Shown here: positions 1-63,563 of the stretch, piece by piece
How positions within the stretch are numbered: the stretch's first letter is position 1
How the letters are laid out: the number at the start of each line of letters is the position of its first letter
Assembly (NCBI GenBank): GCA_001805445.1
Contig: MHGF01000028.1
Location: 9,651 to 73,650, forward strand
Source of the DNA: Omnitrophica WOR_2 bacterium GWF2_43_52
GTDB taxonomy: Bacteria > Omnitrophota > Gorgyraeia > Gygaellales > UBA12090
Length of the DNA stretch: 64,000 bases
Direction of reading: 5' to 3'
Notes under the pieces: generated by a model
The model's input: the letters and a program-made list of their open reading frames with translations, nothing else
Database searches by the model: none
Told to the model about the DNA's origin: nothing
Translations under genes and position numbers: made by a program

Positions 1-100
1 GCGCTCCGCCGACTTATCGTCGGCTACGCTGAGCACCCCCCAATCGTGGGGAAAATTTTTCCCCACACCCCTTTTAGTACACCGTCACACTAGTAAAAAC
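1..100. repeat. Y-family structured repeat, copy 1 (truncated by window edge)
   Basis: Shares a block with copies at 37858-38048 and 49085-49300 (gcgctc..ccgcc-hairpin-ggcgg..ctgagcaccccccaa..cgtgggg..ccccacaccc). Hairpin stems differ between copies but pairing is preserved. Confidence 0.6.
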
Positions 101-222
101 TAATTTAACGGTGTAATAGTTACATTGTATCGGTAATTTCAAGATAATCATCTACCATGTTCAAATCACAGTGTGTGCCGGTAGACGGGTTATCTCTTCA
201 ATTACCTCTCCTTATCCTTAGT

Positions 223-3683: not shown

Positions 3684-3690
3684 ACTATGT

Positions 3691-3790
3691 AAAGGTTGCG
3701 TAAGGTTACGTGAGGTTGCGTAAAGTTACGTGAGGTTGCGTGAAGAAGTTACATAAGGTTACAAAGGCACCGTTACGAAACCTCACGCAA
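3691..3790. repeat. 10-bp-phased direct repeat array (aggttRcgtR x about 6) plus one inverted copy (cctcacgcaac)
   Basis: Read directly from the sequence: aggttgcgtaaggttacgtgaggttgcgtaaagttacgtgaggttgcgtgaagaagttac...cgttacgaaacctcacgcaac. Lies between the MshEN gene stop and the gspE-2 start. Confidence 0.7.
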
Positions 3791-3797
3791 CATTTCA

Positions 3798-11792: not shown

Positions 11793-11992
11793 ATTAACCC
11801 GGATTTTGTATTAGGTTTTGAGGAAAATGGCCTAAATCTTTGTCAGAACAAGGCTTGCGAGCAAAAGTACCACAGCCGTACTCGGTGCAGTACGGCGAGG
11901 ACACTTTTGCGAGTAAAACGCAGTTATGGCAAAGAGTTAGAGACATTTTACCAAAATCCTAATGCAAATTCCGGGTTAAGAAGGATAGCCTG

Positions 11993-21805: not shown

Positions 21806-21879
21806 GGTAGTGCTCCGTCAAATTAATCCTTATAGATTAACGGCACAGTAGTACACCGTGACATAAATTTCTGTTATCT

Positions 21880-22046
21880 AGGGCGGAGGTCCTGTCAAGG
21901 TTATGTCTTCGCGGGGACGTTCGGCCTGCTCCTGCGGCAGGCCTCACTCGGCGTAAATTTCTGCGCTCCCCGCCGTTGGCGGGGAGACCAAGCCGCAGGA
22001 ATTTCCGTACGCCCCGCTCACACATAACCTTGCCACCCCCGCTTTC
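21880..22046. repeat. X-family structured repeat, copy A (about 165 bp, terminal inverted repeats caaggttatg/cataaccttg)
   Basis: Near-identical to the reverse complement of 49325-49490. Differences lie in hairpin stems and are compensatory (ccccgccgttggcgggg versus ccgcctgcggcgg). Confidence 0.8.
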
Positions 22047-22220
22047 AAGATAAAACGCGATAGCATGAATTTATGTCATAACGCAGTAGTATATGAGTGT
22101 TTATGCGGCTGTTAACACCAAGGAAAAATTGAAGCCGCCTAAACACGCAATAAATTATAGCTTCTTTTGCGTTTTTTACAAGCACTTTTGGTAATAGCAA
22201 GTAATGCGCCACTGAACGAG

Positions 22221-22250
22221 AAAAATGGGTGGCCCCGCCGCAGGCGGGGA
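22221..22250 (-). terminator. Intrinsic terminator after the REC gene
   Basis: Minus-strand hairpin ccccgcctgcggcgggg followed by a T-tract, downstream of the 22320 stop. Confidence 0.5.
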
Positions 22251-22319
22251 CAGGCCTTCAGCCCCGATAACTGGCCGGCTACCAAAGCAAGTCTCCCCAA
22301 AACTTCAAAAGCCAACCGG

Positions 22320-37857: not shown

Positions 37858-38048
37858 CATATAGTGCTCCGTTAACTTAATTCTTACTGGTATAGCGAAA
37901 GTTAACTCCGCACTTCCGCTAGGGGGGCAAGCCCCCCTTCGGCGCTCTCCGCCTACGGCGGATCGCTGAGCACCCCCCAAACGTGAGGGACGGTCTCCCC
38001 CACACCCCCTTACTGCGTTATGACATCAAAAATTAATATTACAACGCA
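37858..38048. repeat. Y-family structured repeat, copy 2, inside the dcw cluster (murF-mraY spacer)
   Basis: tagtgctccgttaa box, hairpins with covariation relative to copy 3, ctgagcaccccccaaacgtg core. Confidence 0.8.
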
Positions 38049-38078
38049 GTAGACACTATAAAGCCTTACAGATTATGA

Positions 38079-44934: not shown

Positions 44935-45843
44935 TTAGCTTGAGAGATACTGCAGGGCTTTTTGCTGGTCTTTCTTAATTTGTAAACGCAGGGCTTCGCT
45001 TGAGGAGAATTTTTTTTCGTCGCGGATTTTGCGGATAAAGTTAATCTCTATATCTTCACCATAAATTTCTTTCGAGAAAGCACACATATGCACTTCCACA
45101 GTTTTGTTCTCGTCACTGCTTCCAAAGGTCGGCCTATAACCTATATTACAGACACCTTTATAAACTTTACACTTATACATAACTTTTACAGCATACACTC
45201 CTTCCTGCGGCAGGACTTCATGATGGGGATTAATATTGGCGGTAGGATAACCGAGTATTCTTCCCCGCTGTTTACCCCGAATGACGGTACCTAATACCGA
45301 GACATCGCGGCCAAGCAGTTTCTTTGCCTGAGAGAGCTTGCCAGTTCTAATCAAATCCCGGATATGCCGGGAACTTGCTTTTTGTCCTGAAATGTGCAGC
45401 TCCTTAATCCCAACACCCTTAAACCCATAATCCTCTCCCAGTGAAGCTAAAAGAGCGGCATCACCCTGGGCTCTATAGCCAAATCGAAATTGGCTGCCGA
45501 CAAAGACAGCCTGTGGATGAAACCGCTTAACGAGAATATCTTTGACAAATGATTCCGCGGGCATTGCCGCGAACCTTGTATTAAACGTAATCACTACACA
45601 GTAATCAATACCCATGGCTTCAATAAGCCTAAGCCGGTGCTTCAGTGAAATAAGGTAGGGCTCGCCTTTTGGATGAGGATCAAAGGTAATACACACAGCG
45701 CTCGCATGAAGCTTTTTCGCGGCCGCGGCCGCCTTGTTAATCAAATACCGATGGCCCCTATGCAGCCCGTCGAATACCCCGATAACGACTACCGTATTAT
45801 GTAATTCCCGGCTAAGGTTAGAAAGCCCGAATGTCGTCTTCAT
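44935..45843 (-). CDS. ribF: Bifunctional riboflavin kinase / FMN adenylyltransferase
   Basis: 302 aa. FAD synthetase N-domain plus flavokinase C-domain. Confidence 0.9.
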   Translation of the reverse strand: MKTTFGLSNLSRELHNTVVVIGVFDGLHRGHRYLINKAAAAAKKLHASAVCITFDPHPKGEPYLISLKHRLRLIEAMGIDYCVVITFNTRFAAMPAESFVKDILVKRFHPQAVFVGSQFRFGYRAQGDAALLASLGEDYGFKGVGIKELHISGQKASSRHIRDLIRTGKLSQAKKLLGRDVSVLGTVIRGKQRGRILGYPTANINPHHEVLPQEGVYAVKVMYKCKVYKGVCNIGYRPTFGSSDENKTVEVHMCAFSKEIYGEDIEINFIRKIRDEKKFSSSEALRLQIKKDQQKALQYLSS

Positions 45844-49084: not shown

Positions 49085-49300
49085 TTTCTAGTGCTCCGTC
49101 AAATCAATTCTTATGAGTAAGCGAAATTTGACTCCGCACTTCCCTGCCTCGCCTTGCTCGGCAAGGCTGGCGCTATGACCCGCCAGCGGCGGGACTGAGC
49201 ACCCCCCAAAGCGTGGATGACGGTCTCCCCCACTCCCACTTTAGTGCACTGATAATCATTAAGAACTAAGTTTACAGTGCACTAGTGCTTCGTGACATAA
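49085..49300. repeat. Y-family structured repeat, copy 3
   Basis: tagtgctccgtcaaat...atttgactccgcacttcc plus hairpins plus ctgagcaccccccaaagcgtg...ctcccccactccc plus terminal hairpin agtgcactg/cagtgcact. Confidence 0.8.
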
Positions 49301-49321
49301 ATTTTTGCTATCTGCAACACT

Positions 49322-49493
49322 TCACTTGCCAGCGGGGGTGGCAAGGTTGTGTTTGAGCGGGGCGTACGGAAATTTTCGCGGCTTGGACTCCGCCGCAGGC
49401 GGAGCGCGGAAATTTACGCCGAGTGAGGTCTGCCGCAGGAGCAGGCCGAACGTCCCCGCGAAAACATAACCTTGACAGGACCTCCGCCCTATA
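49322..49493. repeat. X-family structured repeat, copy B (inverted relative to copy A with respect to the shared flank)
   Basis: Both copies follow the motif cgtgacataaattt..tatct. A is forward and B is its reverse complement. TIRs ggcaaggttgtg / cataaccttgacagg. Confidence 0.8.
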
Positions 49494-49581
49494 TTCAAAC
49501 ATGATAGCGCAATGTCAGAATCTAATGTCACAGCGCACTAGTATCCCTTATACACTTTACACTTACACACTTACACACTTT

Positions 49582-50493
49582 TTAAGGCCGGGGATGAAAC
49601 GTTTTATGTATTGTCTTAAGCCTGTTTTTGTCAATATGCGTGTAAATCTGTGTCGTAGAAATATCCGCATGGCCAAGCATCTCCTGGACGCTGCGTAAAT
49701 CCGCCCCCCCCTCCAGAAGATGGGTCGCGAAAGAATGGCGAAGCGTATGAGGCCTGATATCCTTTTTTATTTTTGCCTTACCCGCGTAATGTTTAATCAA
49801 TTTCCAAAAAGACTGACGAGAGATACGTTTTCCTAAACGGCTTAAAAATAAAATTTGGTCTGACGGCTGCTTCACCAACTTCGGGCGGGATTTCTCTAAA
49901 TAGAGCTTAATGGCATGCACAGCCTCTTTCCCCAAAGGGATAATCCTTTCTTTTGAGCCTTTGCCGATACAGCGTAAAAAACCTACATCGAGATTGACGT
50001 CGGTAACCTTAAGGGTTACGGCTTCAGAAACACGTACCCCTGTCGCGTACATAAGCTCTACAATAGCTTTATCCCTTAGGCCTTTGACAGAAGAAGTATC
50101 AACGGCCTTTAATAATAACTCTACCTCTGGCAAGGTCAAGGCATCGGGTATCCTCTTCCATAATTTAGGAGACTCAAGAAGGCTTGAGGGATCGGCCGCG
50201 AGAATGCGTTCTCGCACTAAAAAGCGGTAAAAAACCTTGATGGCAACTAAATTCCTGGCAATTGATGTGGGAGAAAGGCCTTTATCCTTAAGCGAAAACA
50301 TAAAATCGCTGATATTCTTTCTTGAGCTTGAGGATAATATGGCAATCTTCGCGCTATCAAGGTATGTGGAATATTTCTGAAGATCACGACGATACGAAAC
50401 AATGGTATTCTTGCTCAGCGCCCTTTCAACCGATAAATAATTCAGGAAACTATCAATAGACTGCTGCATAGTAATCACCGGCTCACGCCGCAA
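49582..50493 (-). CDS. xerD: Tyrosine site-specific recombinase XerC/XerD family
   Basis: 303 aa. 'HTLRHSFATHLL' and 'LGHADISTTQIYTHI' catalytic motifs. The likely true start is Met at about 50469. Confidence 0.9.
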   Translation of the reverse strand: MRREPVITMQQSIDSFLNYLSVERALSKNTIVSYRRDLQKYSTYLDSAKIAILSSSSRKNISDFMFSLKDKGLSPTSIARNLVAIKVFYRFLVRERILAADPSSLLESPKLWKRIPDALTLPEVELLLKAVDTSSVKGLRDKAIVELMYATGVRVSEAVTLKVTDVNLDVGFLRCIGKGSKERIIPLGKEAVHAIKLYLEKSRPKLVKQPSDQILFLSRLGKRISRQSFWKLIKHYAGKAKIKKDIRPHTLRHSFATHLLEGGADLRSVQEMLGHADISTTQIYTHIDKNRLKTIHKTFHPRP

Positions 50494-57787: not shown

Positions 57788-57862
57788 TCATGAAAGTCGG
57801 GGAGGGCGGATTTGAACCGCCGGCCTTGTCGTCCCGAACGACACGCTCTAGCCAAGCTGAGC
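57788..57862 (-). tRNA. tRNA-Pro (anticodon CGG)
   Basis: 75 nt. Perfect 7-bp acceptor stem (CGGGGAG/CTCCCCG), D, anticodon (TGTCG/CGACA, loop TTCGGGA) and T arms (GGCGG/CCGCC, TTCAAAT). Discriminator A. CCA is not encoded. Confidence 0.9.
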
Positions 57863-57966
57863 CACTCCCCGGTCTGCTTCGCTCTACAACTTCTAAGAAA
57901 TTATGGCATGAGCTTCGCAGACCTTCTTGCTGCGAAGCCATACTCTTACAGATGGGCGGCTTCCCG

Positions 57967-63261: not shown

Positions 63262-63463
63262 ATCTTCTCCCATCTAGACTTTCGCCAAAACCACTATGGT
63301 GGTTTGGCGTGCGCCTCTGCGCTAGCCCAAACTAATCTGATAGTTTGGCATGCGCCTTCTACGCAACTATCGGCACTGGACTTACACCAGTTCATGCCCT
63401 ATTTCTACTGGAGCTCGCGGGCTTTACCGCCGGTCGGGAATTGCACCCTGCCCCGAAGATTAA
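63262..63463 (-). promoter_or_regulatory. FMN riboswitch (RFN element) controlling the rib operon
   Basis: Minus strand reads cttcggggcagggtgcaattcccgaccggcggtaaagcccgcgagc ... gaaagtctagatgggagaag. These are the conserved 5' and 3' RFN cores. The variable region is unusually long, with two similar hairpins. Confidence 0.85.
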
Positions 63464-63563
63464 ATATATTCTACAATGAAATTTCACATTGTCAAGCCTT
63501 TTGTATTCGGATATAATGGCACTATCGCATCTTTAAATTAATTTTATATGTTAACGGAGCACT

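What the first reader, a model, noticed from the sequence alone, without database searches (positions are those of the whole stretch)
49322..50493. X-family element with terminal inverted repeats present in both orientations relative to a conserved flank, one copy adjacent to a XerC/D-type tyrosine recombinase
Copy A (21880-22046) and copy B (49325-49490) both follow the same flank motif cgtgacataaattt..tatct, but X is forward in A and reverse-complemented in B. X is bounded by about 10-20 bp inverted termini (caaggttatg / cataaccttg). An IR-bounded segment found in both orientations is what an invertible DNA switch, or a MITE inserted either way, looks like. Copy B lies about 90 bp downstream of a tyrosine recombinase gene. 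Internal stems again covary (ccccgccgttggcgggg versus ccgcctgcggcgg).
Basis: partly seen in the sequence, partly recalled or inferred. Interest (0 to 1): 0.55.

Follow-up and report, generated by a model that had tools for sequence, protein, structure and literature searches.

The report
Hairpin-forming intergenic repeat, not a switch
The "X element" is one copy of a small, hairpin-forming repeat scattered between genes in Omnitrophota groundwater bacteria; it is not a recombinase-driven on/off switch, and the recombinase next to it is the ordinary housekeeping XerD.

Summary
Copies A (21880-22046, +) and B (49325-49490, -) are about 90% identical, fold into a long rod, and sit in opposite orientation behind the same flank motif.

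Each copy is therefore the GC-rich core of a 243-265 nt imperfect palindrome, so seeing it both ways round against the flank says little.

No inversion is visible. All full-length assemblies agree in orientation at three loci: B 8/8, A 6/6, alr 9/9.

The neighbouring gene is a XerD equivalog in a gene order shared with sister taxa. One sister has only a 35-bp XerD-CCA spacer and no X.

X is a dispersed repeat, with at least five loci in this species and more in a second Omnitrophota clade, none next to a recombinase. Copies lie at strain rearrangement breakpoints and show chimeras and gene conversion.

A conserved basal stem encloses interchangeable interiors and swappable CCGCC-N3-GGCGG mini-hairpins. 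Two orthologous copies differ at 30 positions, with 8 compensated pairs and none broken. Eight of nine loci point the same way as the flanking genes, just after a stop codon.

Best reading: an ERIC/REP/MITE-like, probably co-transcribed, structured intergenic repeat. Its means of spread is unknown. It is a new member of a known kind, of moderate interest.

The parts
21847..21879 (+). Outer arm of composite A (5' side of X-forward): AGTAGTACACCGTGACATAAATTTCTGTTATCT.
   Evidence: Inverted repeat of 22047-22089 (22/29). The homology with the paralogous copy L022 starts here. It pairs with the other arm in the fold of the whole composite.
21880..22046 (+). X core, copy A (type I), forward on the + strand. 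It is antisense to the flanking minus-strand genes.
   Evidence: nhmmer E = 7e-56.
21923..21943 (+). Branch hairpin of copy A (GGCCTGCtcctgcgGCAGGCC). In paralogue L022 it is replaced by GTCCGCCgtaGGCGGAC.
21966..21986 (+). Apical mini-hairpin of copy A (CTCCCCGCC-GTT-GGCGGGGAG). This position is hypervariable.
22047..22089 (+). Outer arm of composite A (3' side), the reverse-complement partner of 21847-21879.
49281..49324 (+).
49325..49490 (-). X core, copy B (type I). It is forward on the minus strand, so it points the same way as xerD and the CCA-enzyme gene.
   Evidence: nhmmer E = 9e-54.
49388..49404 (-). Apical mini-hairpin of copy B (CTCCGCC-TGC-GGCGGAG). Strains L006 and L008 carry CCCGC-CACTAAAAGCGAGA-GCGGG at this position instead.
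49427..49447 (-). Branch hairpin of copy B.
49491..49545 (+). Second outer arm of composite B, a longer variant with an internal duplication.
   Evidence: The homology with the alr-locus paralogue (L026) covers 49283-49549 at 97.8%.
49582..50469 (-). xerD, the housekeeping tyrosine recombinase. The ATG at 50469 gives the 295-aa protein found in the databases; the open frame extends to a TTG at 50493. It is a neighbour of the element, not a functional part of it.
49242..49284 (+). AT-loop hairpin (TAGTGCACTG..CAGTGCACTA) between composite B and the Y element. It belongs to the same intergenic array of modules.
49089..49241 (-). Y element, a separate repeat family. It makes up the rest of the inserted 500-bp array and supplies the Shine-Dalgarno sequence of the CCA-enzyme gene.
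21808..21850 (-). Hairpin carrying GGAG directly upstream of the yggS start codon. It abuts composite A.

Best explanation
X is a copy of a dispersed, non-coding, hairpin-forming intergenic repeat family of Omnitrophota. It is of the same general kind as ERIC/IRU, REP/BIME, BOX and Correia elements, and it is not an invertible switch.

**Shown here**
- The unit is a 150-170 nt rod. A conserved basal stem (GGGCGG.GGTCCTGTCAAGGTTRTGT ... ACAYAACCTTGCCACCC.CGC) encloses interchangeable interiors (type I, as in this window, and type II).
- The rod also carries swappable GC mini-hairpins of the form CCGCC-N3-GGCGG.
- In this species (Omnitrophica WOR_2) the core is nested at the centre of an AT-rich palindrome, and the two arms of that palindrome are the 'conserved flank'.
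- There are several copies per genome. Copies are absent from some orthologous sites in sister taxa, and near-identical copies occur in a second clade. Together these imply spread, but the mechanism is not shown.
- Copies recombine with one another, producing chimeric copies, gene conversion and changed flanks between strains.
- Pairing is preserved by compensatory change.

**Inferred**
- The element usually lies 0-37 nt after the stop codon of the upstream gene and points the same way as that gene (8 of 9 loci). It is therefore most likely co-transcribed and acts as an RNA hairpin in operon transcripts, for example as a 3'-end protector or a processing site.
- XerD lies next to copy B by coincidence.
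For: **Dispersed repeat**
- Exact proteins flanking the L025 and L026 copies carry accessions from the same MAGs as the window's proteins (HAH.., HBG.., OGX..).
- Further copies: L022, and donor copies that are seen only inside chimeras (L046, L062).

**Second clade**
- L037 has one copy. L072 has three copies in 5.4 kb.
- L037's core is 93.9% identical to copy B and 88.1% to copy A.
- The nearest non-self CCA homologue of the window species anywhere in the database is only 64% identical.

**Empty sites**
- L054 has a 35-bp xerD-cca spacer. It keeps the sequence ...aagGGATACTcATG, which is the point where the 500-bp array begins in the window.
- Relatives of L037 have cobQ overlapping cbiB, with no X between them.
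- L075 lacks the X2 copy that L072 has.

**Recombination**
- Flank combinations a-X-b (window), c-X-b (L044) and c-X-d (L022) all exist.
- L046 and L062 are chimeric within X. L058 carries B-specific SNPs at the alr locus.
- Several contigs break inside X.

**Structure**
- Nine type I copies are 96.7% paired, with 7 pairs changed on both sides (2 of 500 shuffles reach this).
- Orthologous type II copies (L072 vs L075) differ at 30 of 171 positions with no indel, while the flanking genes are 79-87% identical. Eight pairs are compensated, 3 are kept through G-U, and none is broken.

**Orientation and position:**

**Not coding:** copy lengths are 163, 167, 169 and 170 nt.

**Not a known RNA:** no Rfam match at E <= 10 on either copy.
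Against: - No target-site duplication and no autonomous partner were found, so transposition is not demonstrated. Flank changes alone could come from homologous recombination between existing copies.
- No transcript data were available.
- The strand that would act as RNA is unclear. The reverse strand folds 8-10 kcal/mol better. One-sided changes give G-U about equally often on either strand (about 7 vs 6). Yet the forward strand is the one co-oriented with genes.
- Compensatory change in DNA palindromes can also arise without selection, by intrastrand template switching.
- Copy A in the window is the exception in both orientation and position.
- The copy census is incomplete.
Confidence: 0.6

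Rival explanations
1. X is a single-stranded-DNA hairpin element. It would be mobilised by a hairpin-recognising enzyme, such as a Y1 transposase of the IS200/IS605 or RAYT type, or an IS that targets hairpin loops. The conserved pairing would then serve transposition rather than RNA function.
For: - No target-site duplication was seen, as expected for that family.
- The stems covary instead of keeping a fixed end sequence.
- The core sits exactly at the centre (loop) of a larger palindrome.
- The arms and the empty hairpins are tagged by NTAG tetranucleotides (GTAG, CTAG, TTAG), reminiscent of GTAG-tagged REPs (PMC3733652).
- An orientation bias relative to genes, and hence to replication, is also expected for ssDNA transposition.
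Against: - No Y1 transposase or any other transposase gene was seen in the 64-kb window or in about 0.5 Mb of related loci. That sample is small and was not screened systematically.
- The tags vary (GTAG, CTAG, TTAG, TTAC) and occur on both sides.
- The arms are not themselves palindromic REPs.
- Copy number looks low compared with typical REP families.
Confidence: 0.15
2. X is a multi-copy stand-alone small RNA gene, or a cis-regulatory RNA with a specific ligand or protein partner. On this reading it is not a mobile or selfish repeat.
For: - Strong structure conservation with compensatory change, including in orthologous copies.
- Orientation bias of 8 of 9 loci.
- Internal-loop sequences (CTCACTCGGCGTAAATTT, CAAGCCGC, AATTTCCGTACGCC) are invariant in all nine type I copies.
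- A -10-like AT hexamer often abuts the 5' end, by reading the flanks.
Against: - The flanking genes are functionally unrelated (xerD/cca, alr, a glycosyltransferase-like gene, radical SAM, recO, polX, cbiB).
- The interior can be replaced wholesale (type II) while the basal stem is kept.
- Copies are present or absent between close relatives and nearly identical across distant lineages.
- No consensus promoter or terminator was found.
- No Rfam family matches.
Confidence: 0.15
3. X is an invertible DNA segment, or a recombination site, acted on by the adjacent XerD or by another site-specific recombinase.
For: - Inverted repeats flank the core.
- The core is flipped relative to the better-matching arm between loci A and B.
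- A tyrosine recombinase gene ends 91 nt away.
- Contigs break inside or near X in several assemblies.
Against: - One orientation per locus in 23 of 23 full-length assemblies at three loci.
- The contig breaks fall at the variable apical hairpin, not at the arms.
- The recombinase is a XerD equivalog, conserved in gene order in taxa without X.
- No other X locus has a recombinase.
- No dif-like 28-mer occurs in X or anywhere in the window (best 18/28, none in X).
- No promoter lies inside X.
Confidence: 0.03

Closest known systems
ERIC / IRU (enterobacterial repetitive intergenic consensus, a 127-bp imperfect palindrome)
   Same: - A long imperfect palindrome of 100-170 nt, non-coding, in transcribed intergenic spacers at low to moderate copy number.
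- Size variants arise from insertions at fixed internal sites.
- Some copies are orthologous between species.
- An RNA-level role of the hairpin has been proposed.

The ERIC properties are from general knowledge of the ERIC literature and were not re-checked here.
   Different: - No sequence similarity, and a different phylum.
- X has a conserved basal stem with wholly exchangeable interiors.
- In this species X is nested inside a second, AT-rich palindrome.
- X shows a strong orientation bias (8 of 9 loci).
REP / BIME / REPIN elements with RAYT transposases
   Same: - Extragenic palindromes located mostly downstream of coding regions, between genes transcribed in the same direction.
- Plausibly transcribed hairpins with a mosaic or modular arrangement.
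- Tetranucleotide tags next to the stems (PMC3733652).
- The CCGCC-N3-GGCGG mini-hairpins and the NTAG-tagged AT-loop hairpins in this window resemble them.
   Different: - REPs are 20-40 bp and occur in high copy number. X is about 165 nt and appears to be low copy.
- The mini-hairpins carry no GTAG or CGTC tag.
- No RAYT gene was seen.
Bacterial MITEs, e.g. Correia/NEMIS of Neisseria
   Same: - Small, non-autonomous, bounded by terminal inverted repeats, intergenic and co-transcribed.
- Found in either orientation.
- Hot spots of rearrangement, with filled and empty sites.

The MITE definition is from PMC11602168.
   Different: - No 2-10 bp target-site duplication could be shown.
- No parent IS is known.
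- The terminal stems covary instead of keeping a transposase-binding sequence.
BOX elements of Streptococcus pneumoniae
   Same: A modular repeat built from interchangeable sub-units, highly structured and located in intergenic regions. This is general knowledge; PMC3049150 appeared in the list returned but was not read.
   Different: Unrelated sequence. BOX modules are arranged in tandem (A-Bn-C), whereas the X modules are nested palindromes.
Invertible promoter switches (fimS/FimBE, hin, Bacteroides invertons)
   Same: A segment flanked by inverted repeats, with a tyrosine recombinase gene nearby.
   Different: - No second orientation at any locus.
- The recombinase is the housekeeping XerD.
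- No promoter lies inside the segment.
- The same element occurs at many loci that have no recombinase.

Membership tests
Invertible DNA switch (inverton) | Inverted repeats flank the invertible segment. | tested here: met
   The arms 21847-21879 / 22047-22089 and 49281-49324 / 49491-49545 are inverted repeats.
Invertible DNA switch (inverton) | Both orientations occur at one locus within a population. | tested here: not met
   A single orientation in all full-length assemblies: B 8/8, A 6/6, alr 9/9. Only consensus contigs were available, so minority orientations at read level were not testable.
Invertible DNA switch (inverton) | A dedicated invertase is encoded next to the switch. | tested here: not met
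   The neighbour passes the XerD equivalog cutoff (392.8 vs 329.6 bits). It scores 75-90 bits against invertase models whose cutoffs are about 221. It is conserved in gene order in taxa without X.
Invertible DNA switch (inverton) | A promoter or coding end lies inside the segment, so that flipping changes expression. | tested here: not met
   No sigma-70-like site lies inside either X copy. Only consensus promoters were scanned.
MITE | Small (50-800 bp) and non-coding. | tested here: met
   The core is 163-171 nt and the composite 243-265 nt. Copy lengths differ by 2-4 nt, so no reading frame is kept.
MITE | Terminal inverted repeats of at least 10-15 bp. | tested here: met
   The basal stem P1+P2 is about 26 nt on each side and is conserved across types I and II.
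MITE | Target-site duplication of 2-10 bp. | tested here: not met
   Flanks of eight copies compared and the L072/L074/L075 copies show no direct repeat. The only shared feature is an NTAG/TA next to the outer arms, which is equally well part of the inverted repeat.
MITE | Multiple dispersed copies, with filled and empty sites. | tested here: met
   At least 5 loci in one species. Empty orthologous sites in L054, L067/L070 and L075.
MITE | A related autonomous IS with the same ends. | not testable with these tools
   The complete genomes could not be scanned. None was seen in about 0.5 Mb of loci held.
REP / REPIN | A 20-40 bp palindrome with an unpaired GTAG or CGTC tag, in high copy number. 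| tested here: inconclusive
   CCGCC-N3-5-GGCGG hairpins occur 5 times in 64 kb, against 0.05 expected, but carry no tag. The AT-loop hairpins carry NTAG tags, but only about 5 are present. X itself is far longer than a REP.
REP / REPIN | An associated RAYT (Y1 transposase) gene. | not testable with these tools
   No such gene was noticed in the window, but the ORFs were not screened against protein families and the whole genome was not available.
Any described RNA family (Rfam 15, including 6S, SRP, Y RNA and omega/bridge RNAs) | A covariance-model match. | tested here: not met
   Nothing overlaps X at gathering score or at E <= 10 in small-region scans of both copies. The same holds for type II.
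Xer substrate (dif / IMEX attachment site) | A 28-bp dif-like site: two 11-bp arms around a 6-bp centre. | tested here: not met
   There is no yATAA-N6-TTATG core anywhere in the window. The best match to E. coli dif is 18/28 and none lies in X; no window 28-mer reaches 18/28 against B. subtilis dif.
Integron attC | Cassette recombination sites next to an integron integrase. | tested here: not met
   The recombinase scores 141 bits against a cutoff of 265 for the integron integrase model. The flanking genes are core housekeeping genes in conserved order.

The most novel reading that the evidence does not exclude
The X family may be a horizontally spreading RNA scaffold rather than junk DNA. 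On this reading a conserved basal stem is the selected docking unit, for an unknown RNA-binding or RNA-guided protein, while the interior and the mini-hairpins are exchangeable cargo.

Observations that would fit:
- Two completely different apical hairpins at the same locus in near-identical strains (97% identity across the 500-bp spacer; L006/L008 vs L001-L010).
- The same 15-nt hairpin (TCCGCC-TAC-GGCGGA) at three different positions in two element families.

These could reflect an active hairpin-exchange mechanism, meaning insertion of mini-palindromes into hairpin loops, which has not been described in bacteria.
Probability: 0.1. Interest if true: 0.7.

Novelty: new member of a known kind. 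Interest (0 to 1): 0.35.

Why it matters
- **It removes a false lead.** A recombinase next to a segment flanked by inverted repeats looks like a phase-variation switch. Here it is only a palindromic repeat next to the housekeeping XerD.
- **It documents a new repeat family.** The family is undescribed and belongs to a poorly studied, uncultured phylum. It shapes genome structure: contig breaks, strain-level rearrangements and swapped 5' regions of genes all coincide with it. That matters for MAG assembly and for strain comparison.
- **The evolutionary signal is clean.** The structure-preserving changes (8 compensated pairs, none broken, between orthologues) and the orientation bias make it a good candidate for a functional RNA hairpin in operon transcripts.
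- **There is a possible mechanistic lead.** If hairpin swapping turns out to be an active process, the element would be a tractable example of nested palindrome mobility.

Tried and rejected
- **Genome-contig scan with an 18-mer from X.** It gave 8 hits, all in unrelated phyla and matching only the 18-20 nt seed, so they are chance.
- **Viral-contig scan with the two-arm pattern.** No hit, so there is no sign of a phage origin.
- **Rfam at gathering and permissive thresholds.** Nothing on X. The 6S, SRP, Y-RNA, omega-RNA and bridge-RNA ideas were dropped for that reason and for lack of the partner genes.
- **dif-like or Xer substrate idea.** No site found.
- **Promoter and terminator scan.** Nothing inside X. 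A T-run follows the basal stem only in two recombinant copies (L046, L074).
- **Coding potential.** A 69-aa ORF across copy B is annotated in two MAGs, but the copies differ in length by non-multiples of three.
- **G-U versus A-C asymmetry to pick the functional strand.** No clear answer.
- **Search for more arm copies or more basal-stem pairs in all held sequence.** Nothing beyond the loci listed.
- **Look-up of a protein from L026.** This was solved through the cluster look-up.
- **Literature search for Omnitrophica repeats and for Clostridiales-2.** Nothing relevant.
Full report
**1. The observation**

Copy A (21880-22046, +) and the reverse complement of copy B (49325-49490) align over 164 nt at 90% identity, with E about 2e-59. 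Either strand of X folds into a long branched rod far more stable than shuffled sequence: z = -6.6 and -8.3, with 0 of 200 shuffles as good. The termini caaggttatg / cataaccttg form helix P2 of that rod.

Both copies are preceded on the + strand by cgtgacataaattt.tg.tatct. The B core ends 91 nt from the stop codon of a tyrosine-recombinase gene.

**2.

The flank motif also occurs, reverse-complemented, on the far side of each copy, at 22047-22089 and 49491-49545. Comparison with paralogous copies shows where the homology ends: 21847-22089 for A (94.7% to L022) and 49283-49549 for B (97.8% to L026). X is therefore the GC-rich centre of a 243-265 nt imperfect palindrome that folds as a single rod.

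A symmetric frame looks the same from both sides. That is why X can appear in both orientations relative to the same flank.

Arm by arm, the cross-wise pairing is slightly better:
- A5 vs B3: 27/33.
- A3 vs B5: 34/40, gapped.
- A5 vs B5: 23/32.
- A3 vs B3: 30/39.

A past flip of the core, or two independent insertions of the core into such a palindrome, cannot be excluded. The difference rests on a handful of bases.

**3. Is it a switch?**

The organism is an Omnitrophica WOR_2 bacterium from groundwater metagenomes. I retrieved independent assemblies of three X loci:

| Locus | Full-length assemblies with the same orientation |
|---|---|
| B | 8 of 8 |
| A | 6 of 6 |
| alr | 9 of 9 |

Contigs that break near X break at the variable apical hairpin, not at the arms. 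That is what a repeat with allelic variation does to an assembler.

The recombinase passes the XerD equivalog threshold (392.8 vs 329.6 bits) and fails the invertase and integron-integrase models. The gene order ligA-hyp-MBL-xerD-cca-rbfA is kept in the two nearest relatives. One of them (L054, CCA 64% identical) has only 35 bp between xerD and cca. It keeps the sequence ...GTGTAAGGGATACTcATG, which in the window runs up to GGGATACT and is then interrupted by the 500-bp array. There is no dif-like site and no promoter-like site in X. I conclude that the XerD adjacency is coincidental.

**4. What X is: a dispersed repeat**

A two-arm pattern scan of metagenome contigs found five further X loci.
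- Proteins flanking two of them (alanine racemase in L026, a glycosyltransferase-like protein in L025) are exact matches to proteins of the same MAGs that hold the window's CCA enzyme and XerD. They are therefore paralogous copies in one genome.
- L022 shares a radical-SAM flank with strain L044, whose other flank is the window's yggS. This gives flank combinations a-X-b, c-X-b and c-X-d, the signature of recombination between copies.
- L046 and L062 are chimeric inside X, with partner copies not otherwise seen. L058 carries B-specific SNPs at the alr locus, which indicates gene conversion.
- None of these loci has a recombinase.

**5. A second lineage and a second type**

L037 (Hainich aquifer) carries the core without outer arms, 18 nt upstream of cbiB. 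In its relatives (CbiB 85-91% identical) cobQ overlaps cbiB and there is no X. Nucleotide homology between L037 and those relatives starts only at codon 3 of cbiB.

The left-flank gene of L037 led to L072 (GCA_040960315.1). There, three successive spacers within 5.4 kb each hold an X, all pointing with the genes. Members of this clade occur in the same Rifle samples as the window organism.

L037's type I core is 93.9% identical to copy B and 88.1% to copy A. By contrast, the best non-self CCA homologue of the window species in 5.8 billion proteins is 64% identical. The element is therefore either spreading between lineages or under very strong constraint.

One L072 copy and its orthologue in L075 (the polX-apbE spacer) are type II. 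They have the same basal stem of roughly 30 nt on each side, but a completely different interior.

**6. Structure is what is conserved**

Nine distinct type I copies are 96.7% paired in the consensus fold. Seven pairs are changed on both sides, a value reached by 2 of 500 shuffles, and the slid controls give 33-51% paired.

The orthologous type II pair differs at 30 of 171 positions with no indel, while the flanking genes are 79-87% identical. Of the 19 changes in paired columns, 16 form 8 compensated pairs, 3 are kept through G-U, and none breaks a pair.

The outermost helix P1 exists in at least three mutually compensated versions:
- GCGGGGGT / ACCCCCGC
- GCACGGGT / ACCCGTGC
- GCGCGGG / CCCGCGC

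The ends are therefore conserved as a helix, not as a fixed protein-binding sequence.

Two hairpin positions are swapped wholesale between otherwise near-identical copies.
- The apical hairpin of copy B has two alleles in the population.
- The branch hairpin differs between A and L022.
- The 15-mer TCCGCC-TAC-GGCGGA recurs in the Y element (two copies), in the X apical position (L037) and, reverse-complemented, in the X branch position (L022).
- CCGCC-N3-5-GGCGG occurs 5 times in the window, against 0.05 expected.

**7. Orientation and position**

In 8 of 9 loci, X-forward points the same way as the flanking genes. By my own calculation the two-sided binomial p is about 0.04. These loci are B, alr, the glycosyltransferase locus, L022, L037/L072-X2, L072-X1, and type II in L072/L075. 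L044 also counts when read relative to the radical-SAM gene.

The exception is copy A as arranged in the window, which is a recombinant arrangement. In the co-oriented loci the element or its arm starts 0-37 nt after the upstream stop codon, while the distance to the next start codon varies from 10 to 240 nt.

This matches what is reported for REP-type repeats: downstream of coding regions, between genes transcribed in the same direction, and plausibly transcribed (PMC3733652).

**8. Mechanism, with its limits**

The best-supported reading is a non-autonomous, hairpin-forming intergenic repeat that is co-transcribed and acts as an RNA hairpin in operon transcripts. Its side effects are homologous recombination, contig breaks and re-wiring of 5' regions.

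Shown here:
- Dispersal of copies.
- Presence and absence at orthologous sites.
- Recombination between copies.
- Structure-preserving evolution.
- Orientation bias.

Inferred:
- Transcription of the element.
- An RNA-level role.

Unknown:
- How new copies arise. There is no target-site duplication and no partner transposase.
- Which strand matters. The reverse strand folds 8-10 kcal/mol better, and G-U and A-C changes are balanced.

Compensatory change in palindromic DNA can also come from template switching, so it is not proof of RNA function. A single-stranded-DNA transposon mechanism of the IS200/IS605/RAYT kind is the main rival. It would also explain the missing duplications, the NTAG tags and the orientation bias.

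**9. Comparison with known systems, and novelty**

The element works like the ERIC, REP/BIME, BOX and Correia classes of small bacterial repeats. It has no sequence or Rfam match to any of them, and no paper in the searchable library describes it.

It fails the target-site-duplication criterion of MITEs and the size and copy-number criteria of REPs. I therefore file it as a new member of the general kind 'structured intergenic repeat', not as a member of any named family.

The nested architecture has three levels: mini-hairpins inside a GC-rich rod inside an AT-rich palindrome. Together with the hairpin swapping, this is its most unusual aspect. Interest is moderate at 0.35. The switch hypothesis that motivated the finding is refuted.

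Noticed in passing
window 1-74 (partial), 37862-38011, 49089-49241; also L051 5774-5928 and L050 about 592-760: A second repeat family, Y, is always sense with the minus-strand genes. It ends in AAGTTAACGGAGCACTA followed within 0-8 nt by the start codon of the downstream gene (the type II secretion protein F gene and the CCA-enzyme gene), so it supplies their Shine-Dalgarno sequence. At 37862 it lies 115 nt upstream of the next gene. Its core gives sub-threshold hits to Rfam Clostridiales-2 (RF02937): 33.3 bits, E = 2.5e-6 at 37932-38018(-), and 18.1 bits, E = 0.13 at 49139-49245(-). It also has swapped GC hairpins. It may be a mobile 5'-leader module.
   Followed up: partly
window 11793-11987; L026 8330-8523: A 195-nt near-palindromic intergenic element upstream of mreC. 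A 97% identical copy lies at another locus of the same genome. There is no Rfam match.
   Followed up: partly
window 75-118, 21808-21850, 38011-38051, 49242-49284; L050 591-633: Hairpins with a 9-13 bp stem, a 17-24 nt AT-rich loop and an NTAG tetranucleotide next to the stem. The stems differ between copies but stay complementary. The L050 and 38011 copies look like the arms around X without X, that is, an 'empty' frame.
   Followed up: partly
window 21970, 22235, 37949, 49180, 49390; L022 13670; L025 3; L037 1180: The mini-hairpin CCGCC-N3-GGCGG occurs 5 times in the window, against 0.05 expected. The identical 15-mer TCCGCCTACGGCGGA sits in two element families and at three structural positions. 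This suggests a tiny exchangeable or mobile palindrome.
   Followed up: partly
L072 4943-5113; L075 4565-4735; L077 2553-2723: X type II has the same basal stem as X but an unrelated interior. It is orthologous in two species (the polX-apbE spacer). The two copies differ at 30 positions with 8 compensated pairs, none broken, and no indel.
   Followed up: yes
window 49546-49581, 45155-45179, 3684-3797; L054 3966-3995: Short tandem repeats (GTGTAAGT-like units directly after the xerD stop codon). They are conserved in the sister species that lacks X. A separate array of roughly 10-nt units (GGTTGCGTAA / GGTTACGTGA) lies at 3684-3797. Function unknown.
   Followed up: no
window 21806-22319 versus L044, L046, L050: Strains with an identical YggS protein have entirely different upstream regions, right up to 8 nt before the start codon. 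The window has composite A, L050 has a hairpin plus Y, and L044 and L046 have other flanks. The joints fall at the GCACTA motif, so these modules re-wire 5' regions between strains.
   Followed up: partly
window 49322-49531 (-); L002/L003 9551-9760: A 69-aa ORF running through X copy B is called as a hypothetical gene in two MAG annotations. Length differences of 2-4 nt between copies argue that it is spurious.
   Followed up: yes
L056 3616-4000: A more distant relative (CCA 58% identical) has, in the same xerD-cca spacer, 385 bp of unrelated GC-rich hairpins and short tandem repeats. Lineage-specific structured inserts at this spacer may therefore be common in the phylum.
   Followed up: no
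window 63350-63464 (-), 57797-57871 (-), whole window: An FMN riboswitch and one tRNA, both above the Rfam thresholds. Nearly every long ORF over the 64 kb lies on the minus strand.
   Followed up: no
window 22229-22255 (-): A GC hairpin (CCCCGCC-TGC-GGCGGGG) followed by CCACCCATTTTT on the gene strand, just after the response-regulator gene. It looks like an intrinsic terminator, although the consensus scan missed it. The 13-mer GCCACCCATTTTT also ends the recombinant X copy in L046.
   Followed up: no
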